Assembly: GCA_964057225.1 (NCBI GenBank)
Contig: OZ059894.1
Span: 124,001-188,000, forward strand
Origin: Auanema rhodensis
Taxonomy: Eukaryota > Animalia > Nematoda
Length of the DNA: 64,000 nucleotides
Direction of reading: 5' to 3'
Below the pieces are notes generated by a model, which did no database searches, had not been told where the DNA came from, and saw nothing but the letters and a program-made list of their open reading frames with translations. A program made the translations under genes and the position numbers. Numbering within the stretch: the stretch's first letter is position 1; every line of letters starts with the position of its first letter. This document shows positions 1 to 63,700 of the stretch, in pieces.

Positions 1-404
1 ACCGCATCTCTTTATCTTTTACGTGAAGCGAGTTACATACCAAGTGCACATCACGTGTACATTTAATTAGCATAAATTAAAGTTCACGTAAATTTCAAAG
101 TCATGGTTACCATGAACCAATATCAATAAAAATTTGTTTTTAGACTAATATGGACATGGGGAATCTAATTTTGAAAACCGCATCTCTTTATCTTTTACGT
201 GAAGCGAGTTACATACCAAGTGCACATCACGTGTACATTTAATTAGCATAAATTAAAGTTCACGTAAATTTCAAAGTCATGGTTACCATGAACCAATATC
301 AAAAAAAATTTGTTTTTAGACTAATATGGACATGGGGAATCTGATTTTGAAAACCGCATCTCTTTATCTTTCACGTGAAGCGAGTTACATACCAAGTGCA
401 CATC
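1..404. repeat. 176-bp tandem satellite, left flank (about 2.3 monomers)
   Basis: ACCGCATCTC recurs at 1, 177 and 353 (period 176). Same monomer as 11870-64000. The third monomer stops at ...AAGTGCACATC and resumes in register at 11870. Confidence 0.99.
401..404. repeat. 4-bp target-site duplication CATC, left copy
   Basis: Intact monomer reads GTGCACATCACGTG. Left junction is GTGCA-CATC|CGTTCC and right junction is GGAACG|CATC-ACGTG. Confidence 0.95.
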
Positions 405-741
405 CGTTCCGTTATGCTCTCACGTCGATCCTATAGACCAATAAAGCCTACAAGATGAGTGTGATAGTATTCCAGATGTAGCGGTAGATAAAGAGCATAA
501 TGGATAAACATAAGACTCGAGAAAGAAAAGTTTATTATGTCTACATGATTACAATAAGTTATATAAGTCTACATAAAGATATAAAGTGAAAGAGAGCTAA
601 GAAAGGAAGACCAACCATCCATAGTCATTCCATAAGGCAAAGCAGAAGTCTGTGTTCCATATGAAGGGCGTGTCGTCCTCTCTCAGCCTCATGTCGTCTG
701 ATTCTAACCCGCCTGCTACGTATTGATTTCCGAATGGAACG
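405..741 (-). repeat. 3' LTR (337 bp)
   Basis: Direct repeat of 11533-11869 with no difference found by eye. Plus-strand ends are CGTTCCGTT...AATGGAACG (8/9 inverted repeat). Confidence 0.97.
531..536 (-). terminator. Candidate polyadenylation signal AATAAA in the 3' LTR (equivalent site 11659-11664 in the 5' LTR)
   Basis: Plus-strand TTTATT reads AATAAA on the element sense strand. Use of this site is not demonstrated. Confidence 0.5.
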
Positions 742-753
742 TGCCATTTTTTC
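742..753 (-). other. Probable (atypical, A-rich) polypurine tract
   Basis: Sense strand GAAAAAATGGCA directly abuts the 3' LTR; 10 of 12 bases are purines and the position is where a PPT is expected. Confidence 0.5.
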
Positions 754-1438
754 GAGTTTATGTCGCGTCCTCGCGAATAGCAAAATATGTGGCTTGTTTC
801 AATCGTAGCAGAAGGTTTAGTTTTAAAAAATAAAAATTACAATGTTAACATAAAAATAGTAAAGATAAATTACAATATAGTGTTAAACAATATTATCTGA
901 AAATAACTTAATAAAAATTATTTGAAAATACGTGAATATTAAGGAATAAAACAATCTTTTAGAATACCAGGGCTATATTTTGTCAGCGAGAGTGCGCAAA
1001 ATAGCTTTTTAGGCACGACGCTGCATGTCTAACTTGTTTGAGTATAGAGAAACGAGAGTCATGCTATATTATCGATGGAGCTAGCATGTTTCTTCAGCGT
1101 ATTCAAAGCGAATTGTAATAATAAAAAAAAATTAAATTAAATCCCATATAATTTCCGGAATTGAATCATTAACTACTTGATAAGAACTGTTGCTCAGATG
1201 AATATGCAATATAATGTCTCTTATCTTTCATTTCTTCTTTATTTACGGGAAATTATTTGAAATTGATGAAGTTTTATAATCATATATGCTTTGAAACTGA
1301 AATGCTTTTTGATTATTAGCTTACATCTCGTCTTACTCAAGTTTTTCAATGATATAATAATATTAATAGCTCTGGTTTTTTAAAAGAGTGTTGATACAAA
1401 GTTTTACAATAATTTTATCAATCTCGAAATTATTTCTT

Positions 1439-4400
1439 TCATCGTCTTCTTCTTGGTGGTAGCCAATTTTGGTCCGATGGGTCTTCTGGTTCTGTTTCTT
1501 CACTAGAGTCATAGTTATCGTTACCATTTATGACTTTTATGATCTCAATATCGCTGTCGTCGTCCGTGTCATAAGTCGTTGTATTTGATCGCGTGTTTTG
1601 AGCGATTGTATGCTTCATTTTGCGTTCAAAAAGTTTGAGATTGTCTTTGTGTACGTCTTGAATTTTTCCAAATGGATTCTTGAGTTGTACCATGTTTCCT
1701 TCAACGTTGATGACTTCAAATGGTCCATCATATGATTTGCGAAGCTTTTGACCTGGTTTATGCGCTTTAATTGCTAACATAACTTGGTCTCCTTTTCGGA
1801 TATCTCTTTCTTCTATTCGTTGTCGTCCATCATGTTTTCTCTTCGCGGTTTCTTGATGTTTTGCAAGATTTTCTTGAATGATGGTTCTTCTTTCTCCTCT
1901 GATATATTCGGTATTCTCAATTTCTTCCAAGATCTCTGGTTGTAATGTCTCGGGGAATAATTCTTTGTCTAATCTCATACGACTTTCTTTTCCGAATAAT
2001 GCTATGTATGGAGAGATTCCTGTGGTTGCGTGTGTTATTGTATTTAACGCAAAAGTAATTTTTGGTAAATACATGTCCCAATCAGTTACGTCTTCGTTCA
2101 GATAGTGTGTTAATCCTTCTTCTAGCGTTCTGTGTAGTCTTTCGACTTGTCCATTAGAATTTTTCTGATGAGGGAGTGTTGGCTCGTGTTTAATGCCAAG
2201 TTGTTCACACATTTCTTCAAATTTCTTTGATACAAAATTAGATCCACGATCGGTTATTAAACGATTTGGTGGTCCAAAAATATATACGAAATTCCTGAGG
2301 AATCTATCAATGATGACATCGGTGACAATTGTTGGTATAGCGATGGTTGTCGCCCATTTGGAGAATGAATCTTGTATTGTTAGGACATAATTGTTGTTTC
2401 TTTTTGAAGTAGGGAATGGTCCCATAATATCCATATGTATTCTCTCAAATGGTTTTGATGGTATTTCAAATTGACCCATAGGCTGAACGGTCATAGCGTG
2501 AGGATCTTTCTTCCTTTGTGCGCATTTAACGCATTGTTTCACAAAAATTGCTATGTCCGTTTGCATATTTGTCCAGCAGAATCTTCGTAGTATGGCTTCT
2601 TTAGTTTTGTTAATTCCTTGATGTGCTCCAATTGCTGGGTCTTCGTGAAATTCTTCGATAACCTTGTTGATAAGTTCGCTTTCCCTTGGTAAAATCAAAG
2701 CTGGGTGTGGTCGTTTTCTGCTTGGTTTTGTGTATAACATGTTGTCAATAACACAATAACGATCATTAGAAAGCATGTTCTTTTTCGCTCTGTATTCTAT
2801 TTCGGCGATAGTTCTCTTTATCCAAGGTGTATCCTCTTGAATTGCTCTAATGTCAGGTACATTAACGAAATTAATTTGAGCTTTCGGAATTTCTTTTGTT
2901 TTCTTTTTCTTTTCCGGTTTAGGATCGTTTGCTTCATCTCCAATGTATCGTGAGAGAGCATCACAGACTTTGTTTAGTCTGCCTTCTCGGTATCTTATCT
3001 CGATATCGTATTCCTGTATGACTAATTGAAATTTTGCTAGTCTTCCAAAAAGGTCTCTACGAGTCAATAAGCTTGTTAATGGTCGATGGTCTGTGATACA
3101 GATTGTATGTGATCCAAGTATATATGTTCGAAACTGAGCTAAAGCGTATACGAGTCCTAACGCTTCTATTTCAATAGGAGCATAGTTGCGTTCCGCTTTT
3201 ACAAGTTTACGGCTTGCAAATGCAATTGGATGTAAATTTTTGAGTGGTTCATTGGGATCTTCAGGTTGTAATAACACTGCTCCCACTGCGATATTACTAC
3301 CGTCACTTTCTATAATGAACATACGGTCTGATCTTGGTGGTTTTAAGACCGGTGCTTGGATCAATTTTCTTTTTAGTGTATCAACAGCTTGTTGACTTTT
3401 GTCATTCCATTGAAATTCCACATCAAGTTTTGTAAGGTCGTATAAAGGGCTTGCGATGTGTGCAAAATCCTTAATAAATTTCCGAAAGAATCCTACCATT
3501 CCCAAAAATGCTCTTACTCCTGTAGGTGACTTTGGAGCAGGATAGTCTTGAATGGCGGATACTTTCTGTGGATCTGGTTTGACCCCATCTCTTCCGACAA
3601 TTAAACCAAGAAATTTTACTTCAGGTCTTGCAAAAGCGCATTTCTTGAGTTTTATTTTCATGCCTAATTTCTTTACTTCTCTGAGAATCTCAGCTATATC
3701 GTCAAGATGTTGTTCTGCAGTGTCTGATATAACGAGTAAATCATCCAAATAAACAAAGAGTCGGCATTTACATCGGCTTTGAAGGTATCGTACTGCTGTT
3801 TGAAAGGTATGTGGCGCTCCACATAACCCCATAGGCATCCTTCTATATTGATAAGTACCGGTGTTTGTTGTAAATGCTGTTAATGGTCGATCTGATTTCT
3901 TTAATGCTATTTGGAAGAATCCGGATACTAAATCAAAGTTAGAAAAATATTGTGATCCGGCTGCCATATCGACAATGTCAGAGATGTTAGGTATGATGTA
4001 CGTTTGCTTGCGAGTGACGTTATTTAGAGCACGGAAATCGGTTACGAAACGGAATGTTTCATCTTTCTTTTTGACTAAAACTACAGGACTATTGAAAAGA
4101 GATGTGGATGGTTCAATTATATTTTGCTTCAGCATCTCCTGTACCTGTCTTTCGACTTCTTCTTGTTTGCCTATAGGGATACGCGTTATACGCGGTCTAG
4201 GCATGTCCATATCTGTTCTTAGAGGTATTGAATGCTCTACAGGTCCTTTAAATAGTCCTATTTGTTTATCCTCATTTAAAAATGCATCTCTATTACGTAG
4301 AATACAAAGCTGAAGAAGATCTTTTTGTTCTTTAGTTAGGTCGGCGTCTTTTAAATCAAGATCGTTCATAAAGTCCTGAGGAAAATGAGGTAATTTATTT

Positions 4401-7400
4401 TCCCAATCCGCTTCGGGTGGTATATAGTCTGGATTGTGTTCGGTCGTAAAGATCTCGTATTGTGGCAGTACGCCTATTTTTGCTTTGTCAATAATGTTTC
4501 CGGGTGATAGATCAATAGGATGATCAGTGTTGTTTTTGAATGTCATGGTAATTGAATTGACGTCTCGAAATGCTGTTTCGTAGGTGGTAGATATCGTCTT
4601 TTCTTCATCGGGTTGTAGCACGGCGACTTCGTTGTGTGATATGGGTTCAGCTAACCTTACTGGTATTCTACAGGTCTGGTGAGGAAAGATACATTGTGGA
4701 CTTAAATTTATCAAATTAATGACAAATGATGTTTTTCTGATATTCCCGTTATTTCCATTGGCTAACGGTACTACGCGGTCTCCGATTTCTAACGTTTGTT
4801 TGAATGGTCGAAGTTTCATACCGATATTTTGACGATCGAGTGTTTTCATAAAATCTAATCCAATTAATGCTGGTGATGGACAGTCTTCATCTCTTGAAAT
4901 GAAGAATGTATGATCTATTTCATATCCAGCGATTTCTACGGTTAAATCAATTGTTCCCAGAAATCGAAATGCTGATCCGTTTGCTGTCGTTGCAACTGAT
5001 TTATCCTTTTTTACAAAATCATTCAAAGTTAAGTAATGTAATGTCGAGAGTCTGATATAACTAATCGATGATCCTGAATCCCAAAGAGTTAGGATTAGTC
5101 TATCGTTAACAGTCATCAATAGCAGTGGTAGAGTTTGGTCTTTGCGATTGGAAACTGAACAAACTATGGGCATAGCTAGTGGAACTAAAGTGAGAAACGA
5201 TGGATAGTACTGTTTCATTATGTTCCTTGGTATTGGCTGATCAGGTTGACTTACTAGCTCTAATGTTTCTTCATATGTGGGAAGATCGTTGGTTTGATCT
5301 CGGAGTTCGATATGCATGACTTGCATGCCTATTGGTTTGAAGAAATATATTTTCGCAACAAAGGCTAGTACGATCAGTATAACTACAATAATTGTAATTG
5401 CTCCAATAGTGATGAGTGTTCGTTCAATCGTTCCTGCTATTGTATCGACAAAAGAATTCCATGTACTTTTGGTGAATTCATTGGCTTTGGAGATGTAATC
5501 ACTACTTTTCTTCAATATGCTGAATGCTGATGATATTTTTGGATCATGATGAATTGTGTGAAGCACGTGATTTTGACGAATCGATGCTAAACTAGCACCA
5601 TAAGCAATGGCTGTTGTCATTGAGTACACTCGAGATGATAAGTTGGTGTATAAGTGTGCTCCGGTGAATTTTAATGGCGTGATCTTTTCATGATGAAGTC
5701 CGTCCCACATGGATATGAGACTGACGTCTACAGTACCATTAATTCCTTTCCATTCACCGTCTGTTGACCATACGTCTGTTGGTACGTGATCACAGTTAAT
5801 TTCTTTACCATGAGGTAATAGGTCTTTCGATCCTGGTGCGGCAAACAGTAATTGTCCTTCTTGTGTTAATACTGGGGTTTCGAGATAACATGTGCCATTC
5901 ACAGTGTGATTGTGATATATAGTCTTTTGTAATACTACCGGGCAAACATGTATATGTAATATCTCGCTGCCTACAAATCTTGCGGCTATATCTTCTCTTC
6001 CCAGTATTGTACGCATAGCTATTGTTGGTTCAATTTGTAAAATTGATCTCCATAATTCAAGATACCTATTTTGGATCTCACATATTGATTCGTATGACTC
6101 TTTAAAATGTTTCTGCAGTTCTTCTTGAATCATAGTTGTAGCATATTGCAAATGATCTTGTGCAATTCTGCTTGTTATGTTTTGGCGAAACTGTTGTTCG
6201 GAGTCAATTTTTGTGGCAATGTATTGAGCATTAGCCTGTACAGACTCTATATCGGTGGCTGTAGGTGTTGATGATGCTCTATGTTTACGAATCAAGGATA
6301 TTGGTGTATATGTTGTTTCTTCCATTATTGGGATTTGTTGATCTTGATAAACAGCGTAGAGAATAGTAGTTGGCGGCGCGCGGGTCGATATTGTTGCGCG
6401 CGCGGTTGTCGTTGCGGTTGTATGGCGCGCCGTTGTTTCGGGCTGGGCCATCGATGAAGGCGCGCGCGCGGTAGTTGCTGCGGCTGCCCGAGGGCTTGTA
6501 GATGTTTGCGGCAGTATTGCGGAATCTGTTGTGATCAGCGCCTCACGATCGATTATAGGGAGGGCTGCCATCTCGGCCGCGCCGCCTGCCGCGTTGCTTG
6601 GCGCACGCGTCGTGATTTGCAACGATTTAAGTTGGATTTTCTCTGTCATTAATCTTTTTAACTGTTCTGATGATATTCTACTAGATGTATTAGGCAAAAT
6701 ATTATCGTTTAGTAGTGGTAAAAATATTTCCAATAATAAGTCCTTAGAGATGTTGTTGGGCTCTTTGAGCTTGGGATGTGGTCCAATTGGTATTCCAAAA
6801 TTATTCTTGATGTCATAGAACAATTTATCAGTATCAAGTACAAACATTCGTGAAGATGGAATGTTTATAAATTTTATGTCATCGATATCAGCTGCTGTTT
6901 TATTTCTTCTAAGCGTAACGAGAGTTTTTAGCTCATGTACAAGGTCAATTGTATCTTTTATAAATTTGCTGTTTCTTTCTTCTTGATCAGTTAATAATTG
7001 TTTCCTTATTGGTGGCATTTTTACGAATGTTTTTAATATTTCTTGTCTTGATGGAACTGTTAATTTGTCTTCAATTATAACTGGTGTATTGGCTAAATCA
7101 AGAGCGATAGTTTCAGCACGCTCTCGATAAGTGCCTTCTTTTGTACGAATTAACTGATCAAATTCAATAACGGTCAAACGATCTGATATTTGTTGAAGAA
7201 GTTGCCTGGATGTTAAATAAGATATTCCAGCTTTAGTAGCTAAAGCTAATTCTCTTTGAGCAACATATTGTAAAATGGCTTCGTCTTTATCACGGAAATC
7301 ATATTGTTTGAGAAAATGTCTTAAAGATTTCTCATAAATTTGAATTTTAAAGAAAAATTCAAAATTTTCGCGATGGGCTATTATCCATTCTTTTAACGAA

Positions 7401-10123
7401 TATGTAGGGTCTACCATACGTCTTCCTTTAATTAGAGGAATAATTTGTGTAATTCCTGGATTACTCATAAGTGGTCTTAAAAATGGATATGGGCAAATTC
7501 GAAGCGTGTACGTTTCAAAATCTTCAACTTCATTTATTCTATCCTGATCGAATGGGAATGAGCATTTTGTAGAAGTTGCGCGTTTAAGTCTTTTGAACGG
7601 CAATTTCTTAAATTCTCGTTCAATTAGGAGTGTGATATTGTTATCATTAGGATATTTGGGGAATGTTATATAATTTCCTGATGTTGTGTGGAATGCTGGT
7701 TGTCTAAAGCAGGATGCAATTGGTTTTGGTGTTAGTTTACTTGAAAGGATAAGCGCTGATTGTGTACTTGGAATCAAAATAGTTTCTTTGCTTATTATGG
7801 CATCGTAGTAATGCATATCGATATAATTACAACGGGAATCCGATGTTTGGGGATCCCATATAATTATTGATGTATTTGATTTGCAATTACCATGATGAGC
7901 ACTACAACCTTCAGTGTTTAGTATTAAATTGGATAATATTGTATCATCGGGCATGCGGGTCATGACTCCGCGCTCTAGTACTAAACGCGGCCGCTCCTCG
8001 CACTCGTCGCGGCTAAACGCGCGCGCCGGATCATAGGAGGGCTCTGGGGTTGCTTGTGCTATACTATCGATTCTCTCCAGCTCCATGTTATTCCATTTGC
8101 GATCGCGAATCGCCTGCCTGCACTCGTGCGCCGCTATAGGCTGCACCCTATCGATTGTTCTGTTTGTGTCGCGGAGGAATAACAAATCGCGTACACACAG
8201 CTTGTGTACTTCCTTCGAGCAGCGCCACGCGTCCCACTCGTGTGCCGTGTGGTTTCGCGTGTATAGATGGATTTGTGTACGTAGCACATGATTTGTTTCT
8301 GTTAATTTACATTTCTTTACTACTGGCGGAACTAATAAGGCTCCTCCAGTTGCTTTTGTGCAAATTTGATATGAAGTTACACATGGCAGGAAAATTGCTA
8401 CTGTGATTGCCATTACAACCGTTAGTGATAACGGTGAAAGGGTCACAGAGTTAATTCGTGGTGTGCTTCTATCTCGTCCTCTTGATTGATCTCTTTGATT
8501 GTTAAAATGGACTCTTCTTTGTCCGTTATGTTCATTAGTCCTTCCTCTTCTACTATTGTTTGAAGGATTAAAATTGTTTGAATGCCAGTTGTTATTAAAT
8601 CGTCCCGAATTTCGTTCATAATTATTGTTACGGCGATAATTAGCAAAAGAGCCGTTACGATTTTGGTTGTTATTATATTTTGAAAAGTTTTTATTTTTCT
8701 GATAATTTTGATAATTATGATAATTTTTATTGTTTTGGTTATCACGTGGATAATTACGGTCGAAATTTCGGTTATCTCGTCTCTCGTTTGTGCGCGCGAA
8801 AGGAGCTAGTGCTTTGTTTACAGCATTGACTAGCATGGACTGCGTGTCTGTTGTCTGGTTCATTATCGATTCTTCCCAGCGAGCGGCCTCAATCGCATCC
8901 GTGAAGGATTTTGGCTTCGCTCGAATCACAGCTGGTTTCAGAGTATTTTTTAGTCCTCTGAGGAAAGTTGATCTTAATATGTGATCTTTGTGAGGGTCAT
9001 CCGTGGCAAAAGCGCTTAGTGCAATCGTTCTCAGTGATTGAGCGTAAGCGTCAATTGTCAGATCCCCTTGGGTTGTATTTTGGAGATTGATCAGCGCGGG
9101 GTCCTGATTATATTCAGGACAAAGCTTAGATGTTAAAGCTCTTAACAGGTCATTCCATGAACCGGTGGTTTTTAATTGTTCAGGTACTTGCCTGTACGCT
9201 TCTTCCGCTGCTTCGTTTTTAAGAAGCAAAGGTAGAAGGGCTAATCTCTCCGGGATTACCAGACCTACAGCGTTGGCAAATAGGTTGAATTTAGCCGTGA
9301 AATCTCGAAAGTTGCGACTGCCATCATAAGTTGGGCAGTAGGGTGATAACAAGGCTTGCGCTATGCTAGTTTTCCCTGCCCCAGGTAAAGAAGGTTCAGT
9401 TGCCATATTACTTGTACGGGCAGATGGCATTTTTATCACTCTGCCTGTTGTTAATGAGTTCTCAGACACAGGGGTTGTGTGTACTGAGCGGCTGGGTTGG
9501 TTTGGTGCTTTTGAACTTCCTGTTGTTGTATTTGGTAAAATTGGGGTTGAAGTTTGGTTATCAGTAATAGCAAGATGTGTATGTTCGGGTGGTTGTATGG
9601 GAGATAAATTAATGTTTGGAACCGACGAGTATCTATTCGTGTGGCTGGTGTTCAAGTTTCGATCTTTTGGTGAACGATTGAAGAGATCAGAAACTATGTT
9701 TTTAAAAGTTTGTAAACCGCCTGCACTAGTAGTGGCTACTGAAGGTGAAACTGTTGGTTCAGGGATGGACAGAGAGAGAGATGCGTCCGATTTGCTTGAG
9801 TTTTTATTTTTATTTTTCTTATTTTTATTTGAATTAGAGGAGCGTACCTTTTTAGCAGTAACTGGTGTTTGTTCTTCCACTATGACGGATGTTTCTTCTC
9901 CTCCTGGTGGTACGTAATCCTCGTCGCTTAATCGTTCAGTAGGTGAATAAGTGCCTGCACGAGGAGTAAAGAATTTGTCGGTTTTGTGCTCGACTTTCTG
10001 CTCGTCTTCGATTATAGCGATGCTCTGCGCGCGAGCTCGGCTTCTGGTGAGTGGAGCTGAGTCTCGCAGATCAAAATCAGTTCGTGTACTGAGAGGTACA
10101 GCTGATCGGAATCGTTTATCCAC
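1439..10123 (-). CDS. Single Gag-Env-Pol polyprotein (2894 aa from GTG 10123; first in-frame ATG at 9430; frame open from 10186)
   Basis: Uninterrupted ORF with a capsid-like region, Asn/Arg-rich region, signal peptide, glycoprotein ectodomain, TM, aspartic protease, RT, RNase H and integrase. The true start codon is uncertain. Confidence 0.95.
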   Translation of the reverse strand: MDKRFRSAVPLSTRTDFDLRDSAPLTRSRARAQSIAIIEDEQKVEHKTDKFFTPRAGTYSPTERLSDEDYVPPGGEETSVIVEEQTPVTAKKVRSSNSNKNKKNKNKNSSKSDASLSLSIPEPTVSPSVATTSAGGLQTFKNIVSDLFNRSPKDRNLNTSHTNRYSSVPNINLSPIQPPEHTHLAITDNQTSTPILPNTTTGSSKAPNQPSRSVHTTPVSENSLTTGRVIKMPSARTSNMATEPSLPGAGKTSIAQALLSPYCPTYDGSRNFRDFTAKFNLFANAVGLVIPERLALLPLLLKNEAAEEAYRQVPEQLKTTGSWNDLLRALTSKLCPEYNQDPALINLQNTTQGDLTIDAYAQSLRTIALSAFATDDPHKDHILRSTFLRGLKNTLKPAVIRAKPKSFTDAIEAARWEESIMNQTTDTQSMLVNAVNKALAPFARTNERRDNRNFDRNYPRDNQNNKNYHNYQNYQKNKNFSKYNNNQNRNGSFANYRRNNNYERNSGRFNNNWHSNNFNPSNNSRRGRTNEHNGQRRVHFNNQRDQSRGRDRSTPRINSVTLSPLSLTVVMAITVAIFLPCVTSYQICTKATGGALLVPPVVKKCKLTETNHVLRTQIHLYTRNHTAHEWDAWRCSKEVHKLCVRDLLFLRDTNRTIDRVQPIAAHECRQAIRDRKWNNMELERIDSIAQATPEPSYDPARAFSRDECEERPRLVLERGVMTRMPDDTILSNLILNTEGCSAHHGNCKSNTSIIIWDPQTSDSRCNYIDMHYYDAIISKETILIPSTQSALILSSKLTPKPIASCFRQPAFHTTSGNYITFPKYPNDNNITLLIEREFKKLPFKRLKRATSTKCSFPFDQDRINEVEDFETYTLRICPYPFLRPLMSNPGITQIIPLIKGRRMVDPTYSLKEWIIAHRENFEFFFKIQIYEKSLRHFLKQYDFRDKDEAILQYVAQRELALATKAGISYLTSRQLLQQISDRLTVIEFDQLIRTKEGTYRERAETIALDLANTPVIIEDKLTVPSRQEILKTFVKMPPIRKQLLTDQEERNSKFIKDTIDLVHELKTLVTLRRNKTAADIDDIKFINIPSSRMFVLDTDKLFYDIKNNFGIPIGPHPKLKEPNNISKDLLLEIFLPLLNDNILPNTSSRISSEQLKRLMTEKIQLKSLQITTRAPSNAAGGAAEMAALPIIDREALITTDSAILPQTSTSPRAAAATTARAPSSMAQPETTARHTTATTTARATISTRAPPTTILYAVYQDQQIPIMEETTYTPISLIRKHRASSTPTATDIESVQANAQYIATKIDSEQQFRQNITSRIAQDHLQYATTMIQEELQKHFKESYESICEIQNRYLELWRSILQIEPTIAMRTILGREDIAARFVGSEILHIHVCPVVLQKTIYHNHTVNGTCYLETPVLTQEGQLLFAAPGSKDLLPHGKEINCDHVPTDVWSTDGEWKGINGTVDVSLISMWDGLHHEKITPLKFTGAHLYTNLSSRVYSMTTAIAYGASLASIRQNHVLHTIHHDPKISSAFSILKKSSDYISKANEFTKSTWNSFVDTIAGTIERTLITIGAITIIVVILIVLAFVAKIYFFKPIGMQVMHIELRDQTNDLPTYEETLELVSQPDQPIPRNIMKQYYPSFLTLVPLAMPIVCSVSNRKDQTLPLLLMTVNDRLILTLWDSGSSISYIRLSTLHYLTLNDFVKKDKSVATTANGSAFRFLGTIDLTVEIAGYEIDHTFFISRDEDCPSPALIGLDFMKTLDRQNIGMKLRPFKQTLEIGDRVVPLANGNNGNIRKTSFVINLINLSPQCIFPHQTCRIPVRLAEPISHNEVAVLQPDEEKTISTTYETAFRDVNSITMTFKNNTDHPIDLSPGNIIDKAKIGVLPQYEIFTTEHNPDYIPPEADWENKLPHFPQDFMNDLDLKDADLTKEQKDLLQLCILRNRDAFLNEDKQIGLFKGPVEHSIPLRTDMDMPRPRITRIPIGKQEEVERQVQEMLKQNIIEPSTSLFNSPVVLVKKKDETFRFVTDFRALNNVTRKQTYIIPNISDIVDMAAGSQYFSNFDLVSGFFQIALKKSDRPLTAFTTNTGTYQYRRMPMGLCGAPHTFQTAVRYLQSRCKCRLFVYLDDLLVISDTAEQHLDDIAEILREVKKLGMKIKLKKCAFARPEVKFLGLIVGRDGVKPDPQKVSAIQDYPAPKSPTGVRAFLGMVGFFRKFIKDFAHIASPLYDLTKLDVEFQWNDKSQQAVDTLKRKLIQAPVLKPPRSDRMFIIESDGSNIAVGAVLLQPEDPNEPLKNLHPIAFASRKLVKAERNYAPIEIEALGLVYALAQFRTYILGSHTICITDHRPLTSLLTRRDLFGRLAKFQLVIQEYDIEIRYREGRLNKVCDALSRYIGDEANDPKPEKKKKTKEIPKAQINFVNVPDIRAIQEDTPWIKRTIAEIEYRAKKNMLSNDRYCVIDNMLYTKPSRKRPHPALILPRESELINKVIEEFHEDPAIGAHQGINKTKEAILRRFCWTNMQTDIAIFVKQCVKCAQRKKDPHAMTVQPMGQFEIPSKPFERIHMDIMGPFPTSKRNNNYVLTIQDSFSKWATTIAIPTIVTDVIIDRFLRNFVYIFGPPNRLITDRGSNFVSKKFEEMCEQLGIKHEPTLPHQKNSNGQVERLHRTLEEGLTHYLNEDVTDWDMYLPKITFALNTITHATTGISPYIALFGKESRMRLDKELFPETLQPEILEEIENTEYIRGERRTIIQENLAKHQETAKRKHDGRQRIEERDIRKGDQVMLAIKAHKPGQKLRKSYDGPFEVINVEGNMVQLKNPFGKIQDVHKDNLKLFERKMKHTIAQNTRSNTTTYDTDDDSDIEIIKVINGNDNYDSSEETEPEDPSDQNWLPPRRRR
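1600..2700 (-). other. Integrase domain (HHCC zinc finger, DDE core, GPF/Y module); no chromodomain; boundaries approximate
   Basis: FHEDPAIGAHQG...CVKC; HMDIMGP, ITDRGSNF, NGQVERLHRTL; KLRKSYDGPFEV. Confidence 0.93.
2950..3325 (-). other. RNase H domain (Ty3/gypsy type); boundaries approximate
   Basis: FIIESDGSNIAVGAVLLQ, ERNYAPIEIEALGL, TDHRPL, NKVCDALSR. Confidence 0.93.
3580..4240 (-). other. Reverse transcriptase domain; boundaries approximate
   Basis: SPVVLVKKKDETFRFVTDFRALN, FDLVSGFFQI, MPMGLCGAP, YLDD at 3751-3740, KCAF, VKFLG. Confidence 0.97.
4770..5130 (-). other. Retropepsin-type aspartic protease; boundaries approximate
   Basis: LWDSGSSISYI (DSG at 5080-5072), flap-like TANG, ALIGLDFM. 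Confidence 0.92.
5340..8446 (-). other. Envelope-like type I membrane glycoprotein embedded in the polyprotein, probably a class III (gB / chuvirus G-like) fusogen
   Basis: Hydrophobic signal-like stretch VTLSPLSLTVVMAITVAIFLPCVTS|YQIC (8446-8372). Cys-rich ectodomain with at least 12 N-x-S/T sequons. Furin-type sites RLKR (7591-7580) and RKHR (6289-6278). TM LITIGAITIIVVILIVLAFVA (about 5416-5354). The pattern C..Q...EP..A....G.....C...CY..P...F....C recalls gB-like domains III/IV; this is recognition, not a search result. Confidence 0.8.
8456..9340 (-). other. Gag: capsid-like domain (about 9340-8860) followed by an Asn/Arg-rich nucleocapsid substitute (about 8795-8456)
   Basis: PTYDGSRNFRDF...QGDLTIDAYAQSLR...TFLRGL...PKSFTDAIEAARWEE resembles Ty3/gypsy capsid with a major-homology-like segment. 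No CCHC knuckle is present. Confidence 0.8.
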
Positions 10124-11519
10124 TTTGGTAGCGCTCTTGGTTTGGAAAAACCTTGAGTGTTTAGTAACGTGGGGGATTTTGAGACGTTAATGAGTGTTAT
10201 GGATAAGGAGTTTTGGAAAAGGGGTGAGAAAGCTGTGAGTAACTGGTTTGTATAGTCGGCGTTAAGGAATGAATCTAAGTTGTGGCCATCAACAGAGATC
10301 CGCCTACTACCGTATGAAAATTTGGACTTTGTTCGCTTTCCAATTTAATATTCTTAAATGTATATAATTCAACCAGTTTGTATATGTTCAAAAATGTTCA
10401 GTGCTCACTTGATTGATGCCTGAGCAATCTCATTAGTCCTTATTCCCACTTTTTTTTCTTTTTTCTGACGATTCTGATCTTCTTGGACTCACGAGTGATC
10501 GAAAATGCCACGAAAATGGACTTTGGTAAATGTTCAAAGGATTTTAGCGGTTTTCATAATGTACATTCGTAATAGCATTACTCTTTAAGGAAGCAATTTG
10601 GAAAACGAATGAGTACCGTAGTCCCATCATGATCAGAAATCTAGTTTTAAAATTATGGCTAGGAATAGATGACTAAAGATTACAATAACTATATTTAAAG
10701 AATTATGGTGTTTAGGAATGAGTCTTATGCTTCAAAACAACAATAACGGTATGAGGAAGGTGACATATAGTAAGGGGAGAAAATCCAAACTGATATGCTT
10801 AAGCCAACACGACCTGATAGACAATCACTAATAATAATTCAGTTCGTAAAATTGTACAGGATTTTTCGGACTATAGCGATCTTAAAATTCACTTTTCATA
10901 ATATTCCTCCCATTTAGGTGAGGTTTCCCGTGTAACTTCAATGCGTTATCAAAATATTTTTGGATGTTAATGGCAAAAAGTTGTCTGAACAGAAATGTAA
11001 CGCAAAATAAAATAGTCCTGATCGCAAAATATGAAATAATCTCAATTTGGTGCGCAAAATTGTTTCATCCACAAAAATAAAGAAATAACCGTGGCTATTC
11101 TTTCCTCGAAGCCAAAATCAATCCTTAAAAGGAGAAAGTGTGGGCATAAATCTCAATAAAAATTATCCTTGGGTGAATTTGTTCACTAATTCATCCTAGG
11201 GTCCTCAAAAATGCTTCGAGTTCGGGTAACAGAGTATTTGATGTTAACAGCAAGGATATAAAAATTGTTGGGTTCAGACAGACAGAAAATTGTGAACAAA
11301 CGGGAGAATATAACTTCAGTTTCAAAAAATATAAAATCCATCTCCAAAAGGAGTGGTCCTTGCATCTGTTCCCTTTTAAACGTTGTTGGCCCCACCGTAT
11401 TGTGTTGAGACATGGAGTAGATGGTTTAGAGATATAAGAGAATTCAGATTCAATGAATTGTAGTAAAAATAACGAAATATAAGAGAAAATAGTCAAGAAA
11501 TCAAGATAAAAATGTTCGA

Positions 11520-11532
11520 GGTGGAACCTCCA
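11520..11532 (-). promoter_or_regulatory. Primer-binding site complementary to the 3' end of tRNA-Gln
   Basis: Sense TGGAGGTTCCACC immediately follows the 5' LTR. Metazoan tRNA-Gln ends ...GGUGGAACCU-CCA, giving a 13-nt match. Confidence 0.85.
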
Positions 11533-11869
11533 CGTTCCGTTATGCTCTCACGTCGATCCTATAGACCAATAAAGCCTACAAGATGAGTGTGATAGTATTC
11601 CAGATGTAGCGGTAGATAAAGAGCATAATGGATAAACATAAGACTCGAGAAAGAAAAGTTTATTATGTCTACATGATTACAATAAGTTATATAAGTCTAC
11701 ATAAAGATATAAAGTGAAAGAGAGCTAAGAAAGGAAGACCAACCATCCATAGTCATTCCATAAGGCAAAGCAGAAGTCTGTGTTCCATATGAAGGGCGTG
11801 TCGTCCTCTCTCAGCCTCATGTCGTCTGATTCTAACCCGCCTGCTACGTATTGATTTCCGAATGGAACG
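11533..11869 (-). repeat. 5' LTR (337 bp)
   Basis: Matches 405-741 (offset 11128) and is adjacent to the PBS. Confidence 0.97.
11687..11694 (-). promoter_or_regulatory. Candidate TATA box TTATATAA in the 5' LTR
   Basis: Palindromic TTATATAA about 25 nt upstream of AATAAA on the sense strand. Motif evidence only. Confidence 0.4.
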
Positions 11870-11873
11870 CATC
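11870..11873. repeat. 4-bp target-site duplication CATC, right copy
   Basis: GGAACG|CATCACGTGTAC; the satellite resumes in register. Confidence 0.95.
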
Positions 11874-12329
11874 ACGTGTACATTTAATTAGCATAAATTA
11901 AAGTTCACGTAAAATTCAAAGTCATGGTTACCATGCACCAATATCAATAAAAATTTGTTTTTAGACTAATATGGACATGGGGAATCAAATTTTGAAAACC
12001 GCATCTCTTTATCTTTTACGTGAAGCGAGTTACATACCAAGTGCACATCACGTGTACATTTAATTAGCATAAATTAAAGTTCACGTAAATTTCAAAGTCA
12101 TGGTTACCATGCACCAATATCAATAAAAATTTGTTTTTAGACTAATATGGACATGGGGAATCTAATTTTGAAAACCGCATCTCTTTATCTTTCACGTGAA
12201 GCGAGTTACATACCAAGTGCACATCACGTGTACATTTAATTAGCATAAACTAAAGTTCACGTAAATTTCAAAGTCATGGTTACCATGAACCAATATCAAT
12301 AAAAATTTGTTTTTAGACTAATATGGACA

Positions 12330-15300
12330 TGGGGAATCTAATTTTGAAAACCGCATCTCTTTATCTTTCACGTGAAGCGAGTTACATACCAAGTGCACAT
12401 CACGTGTACATTTAATTAGCATAAATTAAAGTTCACGTAAATTTCAAAGTCATGGTTACCATGAAGCAATATCAATAAAAATTTGTTTTTAGACTAATAT
12501 GGACATGGGGAATCTAATTTTGAAAACCGCATCTCTTTATCTTTCACGTGAAGCGAGTTACATACCAAGTGCACATCACGTGTACATTTAATTAGCATAA
12601 ATTAAAGTTCACGTAAAATTCAAAGTCATGGTTACCATGCACCAATATCAATAAAAATTTGTTTTTAGACTAATATGGACATGGGGAATCAAATTTTGAA
12701 AACCGCATCTCTTTATCTTTTACGTGAAGCGAGTTACATACCAAGTGCACATCACGTGTACATTTAATTAGCATAAATTAAAGTTCACGTAAATTTCAAA
12801 GTCATGGTTACCATGCACCAATATCAATAAAAATTTGTTTTTAGACTAATATGGACATGGGGAATCTAATTTTGAAAACCGCATCTCTTTATCTTTCACG
12901 TGAAGCGAGTTACATACCAAGTGCACATCACGTGTACATTTAATTAGCATAAACTAAAGTTCACGTAAATTTCAAAGTCATGGTTACCATGAACCAATAT
13001 CAATAAAAATTTGTTTTTAGACTAATATGGACATGGGGAATCTAATTTTGAAAACCGCATCTCTTTATCTTTCACGTGAAGCGAGTTACATACCAAGTGC
13101 ACATCACGTGTACATTTAATTAGCATAAATTAAAGTTCACGTAAATTTCAAAGTCATGGTTACCATGAAGCAATATCAATAAAAATTTGTTTTTAGACTA
13201 ATATGGACATGGGGAATCTAATTTTGAAAACCGCATCTCTTTATCTTTCACGTGAAGCGAGTTACATACCAAGTGCACATCACGTGTACATTTAATTAGC
13301 ATAAATTAAAGTTCACGTAAAATTCAAAGTCATGGTTACCATGCACCAATATCAATAAAAATTTGTTTTTAGACTAATATGGACATGGGGAATCAAATTT
13401 TGAAAACCGCATCTCTTTATCTTTTACGTGAAGCGAGTTACATACCAAGTGCACATCACGTGTACATTTAATTAGCATAAATTAAAGTTCACGTAAATTT
13501 CAAAGTCATGGTTACCATGCACCAATATCAATAAAAATTTGTTTTTAGACTAATATGGACATGGGGAATCTAATTTTGAAAACCGCATCTCTTTATCTTT
13601 TACGTGAAGCGAGTTACATACCAAGTGCACATCACGTGTACATTTAATTAGCATAAATTAAAGTTCACGTAAAATTCAAAGTCATGGTTACCATGCACCA
13701 ATATCAATAAAAATTTGTTTTTAGACTAATATGGACATGGGGAATCTAATTTTGAAAACCGCATCTCTTTATCTTTTACGTGAAGCGAGTTACATACCAA
13801 GTGCACATCACGTGTACATTTAATTAGCATAAATTAAAGTTCACGTAAATTTCAAAGTCATGGTTACCATGAACCAATATCAATAAAAATTTGTTTTTAG
13901 ACTAATATGCACATGGGGAATCTGATTTTGAAAACCGCATCTCTTTATCTTTCACGTGAAGCGAGTTACATACCAAGTGCACATCACGTGTACATTTAAT
14001 TAGCATAAATTAAAGTTCACGTAAAATTCAAAGTCATGGTTACCATGCACCAATATCAATAAAAATTTGTTTTTAGACTAATATGGACATGGGGAATCTA
14101 ATTTTGAAAACCGCATCTCTTTATCTTTTACATGAAGCGAGTTACATACCAAGTGCACATCACGTGTACATTTAATTAGCATAAATTAAAGTTCACGTAA
14201 ATTTCAAAGTCATGGTTACCATGAACCAATATCAATAAAAATTTGTTTTTAGACTAATATGGACATGGGGAATCTAATTTTGAAAACCGCATCTCTTTAT
14301 CTTTTACGTGAAGCGAGTTACATACCAAGTGCACATCACGTGTACATTTAATTAGCATAAATTAAAGTTCACGTAAAATTCAAAGTCATGGTTACCATGC
14401 ACCAATATCAATAAAAATTTGTTTTTAGACTAATATGGACATGGGGAATCTAATTTTGAAAACCGCATCTCTTTATCTTTTACGTGAAGCGAGTTACATA
14501 CCAAGTGCACATCACGTGTACATTTAATTAGCATAAATTAAAGTTCACGTAAATTTCAAAGTCATGGTTACCATGAACCAATATCAATAAAAATTTGTTT
14601 TTAGACTAATATGGACATGGGGAATCTGATTTTGAAAACCGCATCTCTTTATCTTTTACGTGAAGCGAGTTACATACCAAGTGCACATCACGTGTACATT
14701 TAATTAGCATAAATTAAAGTTCACGTAAAATTCAAAGTCATGGTTACCATGCACCAATATGAATAAAAATTTGTTTTTAGACTAATATGGACATGGGGAA
14801 TCTAATTTTGAAAACCGCATCTCTTTATCTTCTACGTGAAGCGAGTTACATACCAAGTGCACATCACGTGTACATTTAATTAGCATAAATTAAAGTTCAC
14901 GTAAATTTCAAAGTCATGGTTACCATGAACCAATATCAATAAAAATTTGTTTTTAGACTAATATGGACATGGGGAATCTGATTTTGAAAACCGCATCTCT
15001 TTATCTTTCACGTGAAGCGAGTTACATACCAAGTGCACATCACGTGTACATTTAATTAGCATAAATTAAAGTTCACGTAAAATTCAAAGTCATGGTTACC
15101 ATGCACCAATATCAATAAAAATTTGTTTTTAGACTAATATGGACATGGGGAATCTAATTTTGAAAACCGCATCTCTTTATCTTTTACGTGAAGCGAGTTA
15201 CATACCAAGTGCACATCACGTGTACATTTAATTAGCATAAATTAAAGTTCACGTAAATTTCAAAGTCATGGTTACCATGAACCAATATCAATAAAAATTT

Positions 15301-51733: not shown

Positions 51734-51793
51734 TTTTTAGACTAAGATTTTTTTTTTTTTTTTTTTTTTTATTTGACTTTTTTTTTAGACTAA
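51734..51793 (-). other. 36-bp poly(T)-rich insertion flanked by a 12-bp direct duplication
   Basis: TTTTTAGACTAA (51734-51745) - GA T23 ATTTGAC TTTT (51746-51781) - TTTTTAGACTAA (51782-51793). Confidence 0.85.
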
Positions 51794-60700: not shown

Positions 60701-63700
60701 AAGTTCACGTAAATTTCAAAGTCATGGTTACCATGCACCAATATCAATAAAAATTTGTTTTTAGACTAATATGTACATGGGGAATCTTATTTTGAAAACC
60801 GCATCTCTTTATCTTTCACGTGAAGCGAGTTACATACCAAGTGCACATCACGTGTACATTTAATTAGCATAAATTAAAGTTCACGTAAATTTCAAAGTCA
60901 TGGTTACCATGCACCAATATCAATAAAAATTTGTTTTTAGACTAATATGGACATGGGGAATCTAATTTTGAAAACCGCATCTCTTTATCTTTCACGTGAA
61001 GCGAGTTACATACCAAGTGCACATCACGTGTACATTTAATTAGCATAAATTAAAGTTCACGTAAATTTCAAAGTCATGGTTACCATGCACCAATATCAAT
61101 AAAAATTTGTTTTTAGACTAATATGGACATGAGGAATCTAATTTTGAAAACCGCATCTCTTTATCTTTCACGTGAAGCGAGTTACATACCAAGTGCACAT
61201 CACGTGTACATTTAATTAGCAAAAATTAAAGTTCACGTAAATTTCAAAGTCATGGTTACCATGCACCAATATCAATAAAAATTTGTTTTTAGACTAATAT
61301 GGACATGGGAAATCTAATTTTGAAAACCGCATCTCTTTATCTTTCACGTGAAGCGAGTTACATACCAAGTGCACATCACGTGTACATTTAATTAGCATAA
61401 ATTAAAGTTCACGTAAATTTCAAAGTCATGGTTACCATGCACCAATATCAATAAAAATTTGTTTTTAGACTAATATGGACATGGGGAATCCAATTTTGAA
61501 AACCGCATCTCTTTATCTTTCACGTGAAGCGAGTTACATACCAAGTGCACATCACGTGTACATTTAATTAGCATAAATTAAAGTTCACGTAAATTTCAAA
61601 GTCATGGTTACCATGAACCAATATCAATAAAAATTTGTTTTTAGACTAATATGGACATGGGGAATCTAATTTTAAAAACCGCATCTCTTTATCTTTCACG
61701 TGAAGCGAGTTACATACCAAGTGCACATCACGTGTACATTTAATAAGCATAAATTAAAGTTCACGTAAATTTCAAAGTCATGGTTACCATGCACCAATAT
61801 CAATAAAAATTTGTTTTTAGACTAATATGGACATGGGGAATCTAATTTTGAAAACCGCATCTCTTTATCTTTCACGTGAAGCGAGTTACATACCAAGTGC
61901 ACATCACGTGTACATTTAATTAGCATAAATTAAAGTTCACGTAAATTTCAAAGTCATGGTTACCATGAACCAATATCAATAAAAATTTGTTTTTAGACTA
62001 ATATGGACATGGGGAATCAAATTTTGAAAACCGCATCTCTTTATCTTTCACGTGAAGCGAGTTACATACCAAGTGCACATCACGTGTACATTTAATTAGC
62101 ATAAATTAAAGTTCACGTAAATTTCAAAGTCATGGTTACCATGAACCAATATCAATAAAAATTTGTTTTTAGACTAATATGGACATGAGGAATCTAATTT
62201 TGAAAACCGCATCTCTTTATCTTTCACGTGAAGCGAGTTACATACCAAGTGCACATCACGTGTACATTTAATTAGCATAAATTAAAGTTCACGTAAATTT
62301 CAAAGTCATGGTTACCATGGGGAATCTAATTTTGAAAACCGCATCTCTTTATCTTTCACGTGAAGCGAGTTACATACCAAGTGCACATCACGTGTACATT
62401 TAATTAGCATAAATTAAAGTTCACGTAAATTTCAAAGACATGGTTACCATGAACCAATATCAATGAAAATTTGTTTTTAGACTAATATGGACATGGGGAA
62501 TCTAATTCTGAAAACCGAATCTCTTTATCTTTCACATGAAGCGAGTTACATACCAAGTGCACATCACGTGTACATTTAATTAGCATAAATTAAAGTTCAC
62601 GTAAATTTCAAAGACATGGTTACCATGAACCAATATCAATGAAAATTTGTTTTTAGACTAATATGGACATGGGGAATCTAATTCTGAAAACCGAATCTCT
62701 TTATCTTTCACATGAAGCGAGTTACATACCAAGTGCACATCACGTGTACATTTAATTAGCATAAATTAAAGTTCACGTAAATTTCAAAGTCATGGTTACC
62801 ATGGGGAATCTAATTTTGAAAACCGCATCTCTTTATCTTTCACGTGAAGCGAGTTACATACCAAGTGCACATCACGTGTACATTTAATTAGCATAAATTA
62901 AAGTTCACGTTAATTTCAAAGTCATGGTTACCATGCACCAATATCAATAAAAATTTGTTTTTAGACTAATATGGACATGGGGAATCTTATTTTGAAAACC
63001 GCATATCTTTATCTTTCACGTGAAGCGAGTTACATACCAAGTGCACATCACGTGTACATTTAATTAGCATAAATTAAAGTTCACGTAAATTTCAAAGTCA
63101 TGGTTACCATGCACCAATATCAATAAAAATTTGTTTTTAGACTAATATGGACATGGGGAATCTTATTTTGAAAACCGCATCTCTTTATCTTTCACGTGAA
63201 GCGAGTTACATACCAAGTGCACATCACGTGTACATTTAATTAGCATAAATTAAAGTTCACGTAAATTTCAAAGTCATGGTTACCATGCACCAATATCAAT
63301 AAAAATTTGTTTTTAGACTAATATGGACATGGGGAATCTAATTTTGAAAACCGCATCTCTTTATCTTTCACGTGAAGCGAGTTACATACCAAGTGCACAT
63401 CACGTGTACATTTAATTAGCATAAATTAAAGTTCACGTAAATTTCAAAGTCATGGTTACCATGCACCAATATCAATAAAAATTTGTTTTTAGACTAATAT
63501 GGACATGAGGAATCTAATTTTGAAAACCGCATCTCTTTATCTTTCACGTGAAGCGAGTTACATACCAAGTGCACATCACGTGTACATTTAATTAGCATAA
63601 ATTAAAGTTCACGTAAATTTCAAAGTCATGGTTACCATGCACCAATATCAATAAAAATTTGTTTTTAGACTAATATGTACATGGGGAATCTTATTTTGAA

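What the first reader, a model, noticed from the sequence alone, without database searches (positions are those of the whole stretch)
5340..8371. Glycoprotein looks class III (herpes gB / chuvirus G-like), not baculovirus F-like
Seen: an N-terminal YQIC...PP....C motif, further Cys pairs, and after the second basic site a long predicted helix (SRIAQDHLQYATTMIQEELQKHFKESYESICEIQNR). This is followed by EPTIAMRTILGREDIAARFVG...C...NGTCYLETPV...FAAPGS...C. Established: class III fusogens have a long central trimerisation helix followed by a Cys-linked beta crown domain, and gB-like envs are known from some BEL/Pao elements. Inference: a Ty3/gypsy lineage captured a gB/chuvirus-type fusogen.
Basis: inference. 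Interest (0 to 1): 0.75.

Follow-up and report, generated by a model that had tools for sequence, protein, structure and literature searches.

The report
Worm retrovirus-like element, herpes-type envelope
This intact retrovirus-like jumping gene, likely from a roundworm, carries an envelope protein predicted to fold like the herpesvirus fusion protein gB; that combination is already described in nematodes, and the only twist here is a 430-residue extra domain of unknown fold that is likely cut out of the protein.

Summary
Positions 5339-8371 (minus strand) are the env part of one 2915-codon gag-env-PR-RT-RH-IN frame of a Ty3/gypsy element with identical 337-bp LTRs, inserted in a 176-bp satellite. 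The env matches Pfam Monjiviricetes_fusion above cut-off. Its AlphaFold model matches herpesvirus gB best (Z 12.2, 368 residues, prefusion EBV gB), then rhabdovirus and thogotovirus glycoproteins. Class I chains appeared only as short helix matches, and no class II fusogen was listed. Nematode GAG-ENV-POL Ty3/gypsy elements with gB-type env are described (Chary & Hayashi, PMC13524379, citing Sacco 2022). The element shares their gene order and tRNA-Gln primer site. This scan also noted such an element before on other DNA (e1-9887218). 'Capture from a chuvirus' is not shown. It is a helical domain with no fold match plus a Ser/Thr/Pro linker. Clear homologues come from Auanema elements, with a weak match in Caenorhabditis relatives. 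Long inserts here occur in 20 of 40 env-before-pol relatives and 0 of 17 BEL/Pao ones. Verdict: new member of a known kind; modest interest.

The parts
11533..11869 (-). 5' LTR, 337 bp; ends CG...CG instead of TG...CA
   Evidence: identical to 405-741, 0 differences
11521..11532 (-). primer-binding site, tRNA-Gln type
   Evidence: same 12-mer as the Gln PBS listed for two Caenorhabditis ENV_HSV elements (Clat_4, Ctro_1) in PMC13524379 supplementary file 1
1439..10186 (-). single 2915-codon stop-free frame gag-env-PR-RT-RH-IN; first in-frame ATG at codon 253 (9430)
8843..9229 (-). Gag capsid region (Retrotrans_gag; weak Ty3_capsid), followed by an N/R-rich basic region
   Evidence: Pfam E 1.7e-5 and 1.8e-3; coordinates
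8372..8455 (-). internal hydrophobic segment, likely signal sequence of env
   Evidence: Kyte-Doolittle peaks 1.65-1.91; homologues resume with Y/F-x-x-C right after it; cleavage inferred
7580..8371 (-). env N-terminal part (aa 1-264): N-terminal strand with C4/C21, then gB-like domains I and II; likely fusion loops at L63-L66 and Y113-F119
   Evidence: pLDDT 78-98 per 10 residues, long beta hairpins; aligned to gB and Chandipura G; 60% identical to P0003; loop assignment inferred
7580..7591 (-). RLKR, likely furin-type site 1
   Evidence: a strict R-x-K/R-R lies in the first 45 spacer residues of 20 of 30 long-spacer proteins (query included) vs 11 of 392 background windows
6617..7579 (-). 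inserted, mostly helical domain (aa 265-585), no known fold match
   Evidence: model pLDDT 69.9, pTM 0.68; best Z 3.6, no Foldseek E<0.001; 41% identical to P0003
6278..6616 (-). Ser/Thr/Pro/Ala-rich disordered linker (aa 586-698) ending in RKHR (6278-6289), possible site 2
   Evidence: pLDDT<50 at 582-703; 50-60% S/T/P/A at 601-700; RxxR or a dibasic site at this place in 7 of 8 subclade proteins
5417..6277 (-). env C-terminal ectodomain: central helix 704-780 (6032-6262), beta crown 795-876 (5744-5989), then the domain V / membrane-proximal arm
5357..5413 (-). transmembrane helix of env
   Evidence: hydropathy 3.18
4844..5116 (-). aspartic protease
   Evidence: Pfam Asp_protease_2
3599..4075 (-). 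reverse transcriptase core (YLDD)
   Evidence: RVT_1 E 4.5e-31
3008..3409 (-). RNase H
   Evidence: RT_RNaseH_2 E 1.9e-28
1442..2680 (-). integrase (H2C2 zinc finger, rve core, C-terminal region)
405..741 (-). 3' LTR
401..404 (.). 4-bp target-site duplication CATC (second copy 11870-11873) inside one unit of the 176-bp satellite

Best explanation
This is the env region of an intact GAG-ENV-POL Ty3/gypsy element, likely of a nematode; it is predicted to fold as a herpes-gB-like class III fusion protein that would fuse the particle's membrane with a cell membrane, and it carries an extra domain that is likely cut out by furin-type proteases. Shown: one frame gag-env-pol, identical LTRs, a 4-bp target duplication, a gB-like sequence profile, a conserved Cys scaffold, and a 434-residue insert between two basic sites. 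Predicted: the gB fold, in a prefusion-like arrangement in the model. Inferred mechanism: Gag stays in the cytosol; the internal hydrophobic segment sends env into the ER; the transmembrane helix returns Pol to the cytosol. Env trimerises through helix 704-780. Cleavage at RLKR, and probably RKHR, separates the insert, while the two gB halves stay linked by C4-C810 and C21-C764. On triggering, the domain I loops insert into the target membrane and the trimer refolds. The insert most likely works as a cap or attachment/shielding subunit at the site of gB's cleavage loop; this is the weakest step.
For: Pfam Monjiviricetes_fusion above cut-off. phmmer PDB hits are gB in 44 of 45 rows and align C764 and C810 with VZV gB cysteines. 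Profile E 4e-16 to gB. VIA: prefusion EBV gB Z 12.2, rmsd 6.8, 368 aligned over model 1-892; HCMV and HSV-2 prefusion gB next. Wide search: 7 of 48161 chains reach Z>=8, all class III. The tree places the env with Caenorhabditis elements, SH-aLRT 100. 14 of 151 homologues have gag, env and RT in one protein record. Insert: stably modelled; 41% identity to P0003; among near-identical copies 6 synonymous vs 4 non-synonymous differences in the folded part (pN/pS 0.19, p 0.011) against 2 vs 5 in the linker (pN/pS 0.96). Class described in PMC13524379.
Against: The whole-model pTM is only 0.50 and Foldseek TM-scores are low (0.10-0.31), as expected with a large insert and flexible domains. Top Z values of 8-12 are moderate. 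Pfam Glycoprotein_B stays below its cut-off. Site 2 is only R-x-x-R, and loose basic sites are no more common at that place across all long-spacer proteins (18 of 30) than in background (88 of 134 windows). The selection count rests on 17 differences without correction for transition bias. Disulfide pairing is inferred from recalled gB pairs, not read from the model. No fusion, cleavage or particle data exist.
Confidence: 0.85

Rival explanations
1. gB-like fusogen, but the insert stays attached: it is cut once at RLKR and remains on the C-terminal half as a permanent head on a mucin-like stalk.
For: Only site 1 is a strict furin motif and is enriched across relatives (20 of 30). Most long-spacer relatives end in Thr/Pro-rich stalks without an enriched second site. 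P0008 lacks site 2.
Against: 7 of 8 subclade proteins keep RxxR or a dibasic pair just ahead of the central helix, although the linker around it is only 31% identical.
Confidence: 0.35
2. The env was recently captured from a chuvirus or other negative-strand RNA virus by this lineage.
For: The best Pfam family is Monjiviricetes_fusion. The top BFVD hits are rhabdo-like and nyami-like virus glycoproteins. The title of Sacco 2022, seen only in a reference list, speaks of RNA virus glycoprotein gene capture.
Against: All looked-up near relatives are nematode proteins; viral hits are 8-15% identical, and chu-like viruses are not ranked first. PMC13524379 section 10 argues for ancient co-divergence. 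My tree held no viral sequences, so it cannot name a donor.
Confidence: 0.12
3. The env is a decaying passenger that no longer works in fusion; the insert is accumulated junk.
For: An internally deleted form lacking gag, env and most of pol is seen in three RNA-guess runs. The linker evolves about neutrally.
Against: The frame is open; no indels in 6270-7600 in 4 DNA runs; 60% identity and all core Cys kept against P0003; synonymous excess in the folded insert.
Confidence: 0.08
4. It is a class I (baculovirus F-like) or class II fusogen, or a captured host membrane protein.
For: Coronavirus HR and gp41-tail chains appear at Z 5.5-5.6, but only on the C-terminal helix 943-1011. Atlas lists a haemagglutinin cluster at 0.79 for the insert region of P0003, below its lead threshold.
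Against: Every strong sequence and fold hit is class III.
Confidence: 0.02

Closest known systems
Nematode GAG-ENV-POL Ty3/gypsy 'ancient errantiviruses' with HSV/gB-type ENV (Chary & Hayashi, eLife 2026, PMC13524379: abstract, sections 5 part 1, 6, 10, 18, 22, passages, and rows of supplementary files 1, 2, 4, 6 seen; Sacco et al. 2022 J Gen Virol seen only as citations there)
   Same: Gene order, gB-type env between a hydrophobic leader and a TM helix, tRNA-Gln primer site, and eight Cys in domains I-II at the places seen by eye in their Nematoda C1 rows. P0009, a close relative in my tree, resembles their Clat_4 row by eye.
   Different: No Auanema element is in their master table (Auanema occurs only in the genome list, with tBLASTn ENV-POL hits). 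The text read does not describe a large insert between domains II and III, and their alignment rows cover domains I-II only. Figures could not be seen.
Herpesvirus glycoprotein B (PDB 9oal, 8vyn, 7kdp, 2gum)
   Same: Domain order, central helix, crown and Cys scaffold; basic cleavage site in the loop before the central helix (recalled for gB).
   Different: About 13-16% identity; a 434-residue insert instead of a short loop; made inside a retroelement polyprotein; no gH/gL partner genes in the element.
Chuvirus / nyamivirus / rhabdo-like glycoproteins (Pfam PF24664) and BEL/Pao gB-like envs (Dezordi 2020, search listing only; Tas element, passage in PMC9094657)
   Same: Same class III family by Pfam and Foldseek; BEL/Pao proteins with this env are among my hits.
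   Different: BEL/Pao put env after pol and have spacers of 16-64 residues (17 of 17); viral proteins are 8-15% identical.
Atlas virus of hookworm (PMC9094657, passages)
   Same: Intact nematode retroelement with a non-retroviral env in the polyprotein
   Different: Belpaovirus with a class II phlebovirus-like env

Membership tests
Class III fusogen (gB-like) | Elongated beta fusion domain and overall gB domain arrangement | tested here: met
   Predicted model; VIA Z 12.2 over 368 residues to prefusion gB, Z 8.4 to Chandipura G on 28-253
Class III fusogen (gB-like) | Long central helix followed by a Cys-linked beta crown | tested here: met
   Helix 704-780, strands 795-876; Z 9.3-9.8 to PRV gB domain IV; C764/C810/C828/C860 conserved 90-94%
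Class III fusogen (gB-like) | Internal hydrophobic fusion loops | tested here: inconclusive
   Hydrophobic turn L63-L66 at a hairpin tip and aromatic residues at 113/119; assignment inferred
Class III fusogen (gB-like) | Homotrimer | not tested
Class III fusogen (gB-like) | Membrane fusion activity | not testable with these tools
   needs an experiment
Ty3/gypsy (Metaviridae) | PR-RT-RH-IN order, Ty3-type domains, LTRs, PBS, TSD | tested here: met
   no Peptidase_A17/DUF1759/DUF5641, which mark the BEL/Pao hits
Ty3/gypsy (Metaviridae) | RT phylogeny within Metaviridae | not tested
   no RT tree built
Nematode GAG-ENV-POL errantiviruses with HSV/gB ENV | GAG-ENV-POL order with intact RT and IN | tested here: met
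Nematode GAG-ENV-POL errantiviruses with HSV/gB ENV | Env groups with nematode elements | tested here: met
   clade with Auanema and Caenorhabditis proteins, SH-aLRT 100
Nematode GAG-ENV-POL errantiviruses with HSV/gB ENV | Cysteine-bridge subtype (C1a/C1d/C2) | tested here: inconclusive
   eight domain I-II Cys match the C1 rows by eye; the defining figure is not readable
Baculovirus F / class I env | Hydrophobic fusion peptide right after the furin site, and F-type fold | tested here: not met
   polar sequence follows both basic sites, and the model is positively gB-like
Chuviridae glycoprotein | Phylogenetic placement inside chuvirus G | not tested
   no viral sequences in the tree; chu-like proteins are among the BFVD hits but not first

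The most novel reading that the evidence does not exclude
In nematode GAG-ENV-POL elements the cleavage loop of the gB-type fusogen is a cassette for lineage-specific accessory domains (at least four insert families with no clear similarity to each other, 170-500 aa). In this lineage it holds a ~320-residue helical domain of undescribed fold, released by double furin-type cleavage as a third subunit that does the attachment or triggering job for which herpesviruses use separate proteins.
Probability: 0.3. Interest if true: 0.6.

Novelty: new member of a known kind. Interest (0 to 1): 0.32.

Why it matters
The class III call adds one more intact, young example to a published group, in a nematode genus that the published survey screened without listing an element. 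It would matter more if the insert proves to be a cleaved accessory subunit. gB-type fusogens normally rely on partner proteins or pH for triggering (recalled), so a built-in, variable head at the cleavage loop would show how a stand-alone retroelement gB finds or is triggered by its target cell, and it would add a helical fold with no current match.

Tried and rejected
No whole genome is held, so copy number and other insertion sites were not counted. Sacco 2022 is not in the library; it may already describe the insert or the single frame. The figures of PMC13524379 (Fig. 5 supplement 1) could not be seen and may show such inserts. Two further literature searches, one for nematode class III retroelement envs (1 paper) and one for furin/mucin-like/inserted domains in class III fusogens (6 papers, 5 listed), turned up no description of the insert; that covers only this library. 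Insert homology: no Pfam family; best Z 3.6 among 48161 chains; no BFVD hit under E 0.2; the Atlas gave no usable hit for two stored homologues; one homologue search covered only 2917-5000 aa because of the alignment length and found nothing; another found only P0003. Absence of a match does not prove a new fold. Three copies of the insert in complex prediction gave no verdict (score 0.00, alignment not used). Expression: no listed holder is on record as RNA; the RNA-guess contigs touch env only in two short pieces at depth <3 in one of three runs, which is no evidence either way. No GT-AG joint skipping env was listed. The Pfam 'Ground-like' hit (E 0.003, below cut-off, on the central helix) was taken as chance. 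No tRNA gene lies in 1-12500. The Pfam scan of alignment A2 was over the size limit and was not repeated. No look-alike by sequence among earlier findings.

Full report
Context. The window holds one LTR element on the minus strand inside a 176-bp satellite. The LTRs (405-741, 11533-11869) are 337 bp with no differences, flanked by a CATC duplication that splits one satellite unit, so the insertion is young. A primer site follows the 5' LTR and is the same 12-mer that PMC13524379 supplementary file 1 lists as tRNA-Gln for two Caenorhabditis elements. One stop-free frame of 2915 codons (1439-10186) encodes Gag, the glycoprotein, protease, RT, RNase H and integrase in that order. The host is likely Auanema or a close rhabditid nematode: the only full-length close relative is an Auanema protein (P0003, 48-58% identical in two blocks). 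Of 20 further hits looked up, 11 are Auanema, 6 Caenorhabditis, 1 Heterorhabditis, 1 Aphelenchus and 1 unnamed. Earlier notes on this genome also call it a nematode (unchecked).

Observation.

Class of fusogen. Pfam: Monjiviricetes_fusion 49.9 bits (cut-off 27) on residues 741-999; Glycoprotein_B E 6.4e-9, below cut-off. Single-sequence PDB search: 44 of 45 rows are herpesvirus gB. The A2 profile gives gB at E 4e-16 and four chains named 'Glycoprotein' at E 2-4e-6 on profile positions 59-194 (that 8a1e and 7u9g are rabies G is recalled). The AlphaFold model (mean pLDDT 72.7, pTM 0.50; blocks of 78-98 in residues 1-260 and 75-97 in 711-890) has long beta hairpins in the N-terminal part, a 77-residue helix and a beta domain. 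Foldseek: all PDB rows shown are gB, best E 4.5e-10; BFVD rows are glycoproteins of rhabdo-like, nyami-, chu-like, entomopox and herpes viruses, with low TM-scores. VIA ranks prefusion EBV, HCMV and HSV-2 gB first (Z 12.2, 11.4, 11.0, 10.9; rmsd 6.8-8.5; 364-391 aligned). In the Foldseek-independent search 7 of 48161 chains reach Z 8: six gB and Chandipura G; Bourbon and Thogoto glycoproteins follow at 6.0 and 5.7; class I chains appear only as matches to the C-terminal helix. The class III call stands. The trimer itself was not modelled.

Is it new? No. Chary & Hayashi (PMC13524379) state that nematode errantiviruses carry only HSV/gB-type ENV, arranged GAG-ENV-POL, and cite Sacco 2022 for the first report. 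Their master table has 36 nematode rows (72 word hits), of which I saw 30. Auanema appears only in their genome list, with ENV-POL tBLASTn hits. The eight domain I-II cysteines match their Nematoda C1 rows by eye. My env-core tree (79 rows: the query and 78 of the 95 hits with both domains; 17 dropped for a short N-domain; no viral rows; midpoint root) groups the query and P0003 with five Caenorhabditis proteins at SH-aLRT 100. 14 of 151 hits carry gag, env and RT in one record, so the fused frame is also common, though some records may be gene models. The scan noted a similar element on another genome (e1-9887218). Direction and donor of 'capture' are untested; the eLife paper favours an ancient association.

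Between the N-terminal gB domains and the central helix the query has a 497-residue spacer. Among the 95 of 151 hits where it could be measured (56 fragments dropped) it ranges 16-509: BEL/Pao 17 proteins, median 31, none over 64; env-before-pol Ty3/gypsy 40 proteins, 20 at 150 or more; unclassified 38, 9 at 150 or more. These proteins are related, so the counts are not independent events. In the query, 434 residues lie between RLKR and RKHR. Residues 265-585 model as a compact, mostly helical domain (pLDDT 69.9, pTM 0.68 from 9 sequences), with no Pfam, PDB or BFVD match. Residues 586-698 are a disordered S/T/P/A-rich linker. The domain is 41% identical to P0003, against 60% for the two gB halves and 31% for the linker. 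Its 8 clear homologues are all Auanema proteins, with a weak match to Caenorhabditis relatives (P0009, P0012). Seventeen differences listed in contigs of four DNA runs over 6270-7600 split 6 synonymous / 4 non-synonymous in the domain (pN/pS 0.19, p 0.011) and 2 / 5 in the linker: a small count, without transition correction, pointing to constraint on the domain. Site 1 is well supported (20 of 30 long spacers vs 11 of 392 overlapping background windows). Site 2 is not enriched overall (18 of 30 vs 88 of 134) but is kept in 7 of 8 subclade proteins.

Mechanism. Only two hydrophobic regions pass the threshold in the polyprotein, one just before env (two overlapping peaks) and one just after it. 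This fits a flavivirus-like topology (recalled analogy): Gag cytosolic, env luminal, Pol cytosolic again. I infer signal cleavage before YQIC, trimerisation through helix 704-780, and furin-type cutting at RLKR and probably RKHR. The two gB halves would stay joined by C4-C810 and C21-C764: the 17-residue spacing of C4/C21 and the alignment of C764/C810 to VZV gB cysteines match the gB disulfides as I recall them. The insert occupies the position of gB's cleavage loop and most likely acts as a cap or attachment subunit; nothing here tests that.

Verdict. Observation confirmed, class III reading supported, novelty low: a new, intact member of a described group. The insert is the part worth a follow-up (probability 0.3 that it is an undescribed cleaved accessory subunit). 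Sacco 2022 and the eLife figures, which I could not see, may already show it. Interest 0.32.

Noticed in passing
window 405-741 and 11533-11869: The LTRs end in CG...CG with a 6-bp inverted repeat, not the usual TG...CA, and the target duplication is 4 bp. Whether relatives share this was not checked.
   Followed up: partly
window 1-404 and 11870-64000: A 176-bp satellite, 97-99% uniform, fills the rest of the window (286 copies in the main block), with short 132/308/484-bp higher-order variants near 61800-63300 and a 39-base T run at 51748. In Auanema rhodense, tandem arrays of 167-504 bp make up most germline-restricted DNA (preprint 10.64898/2026.08.27.747507, passages); whether this array is eliminated from the soma was not tested.
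   Followed up: partly
window 9430-10186 and 10012-10344: The long frame runs 252 codons before its first ATG, and a second ATG-less frame of 110 codons overlaps its start. The real gag start (splice, non-AUG start or frameshift) is unresolved.
   Followed up: partly
window 1717/9852: Contigs of three RNA-guess runs of one study (X12-X14) join 1717 to 9852, skipping 8134 bases without splice ends; the DNA run X2 did not list this joint but has much higher summed depth at the element's ends than over env and pol. This suggests a non-autonomous deleted derivative; depth is not a copy number.
   Followed up: partly
proteins P0009-P0150: Several other insert families sit at the same place in relatives (about 175, 190-320, 360-510 and 190-230 aa), most ending in Thr/Pro-rich stretches. 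The 175-aa Caenorhabditis family weakly matches the first ~75 columns of this insert (hmmsearch E 2e-7; hhalign probability 79%).
   Followed up: partly
P0021, P0016, P0013: Some relatives have two or three aspartic-protease-like stretches after env, and P0043 has an RRM in gag.
   Followed up: no
window 5117-5356: The 80-residue stretch between the env TM and the protease holds a PTYEE motif (PPSYDE in P0003), reminiscent of PPxY-type late or sorting motifs (recalled), and a mildly hydrophobic segment before the protease.
   Followed up: no
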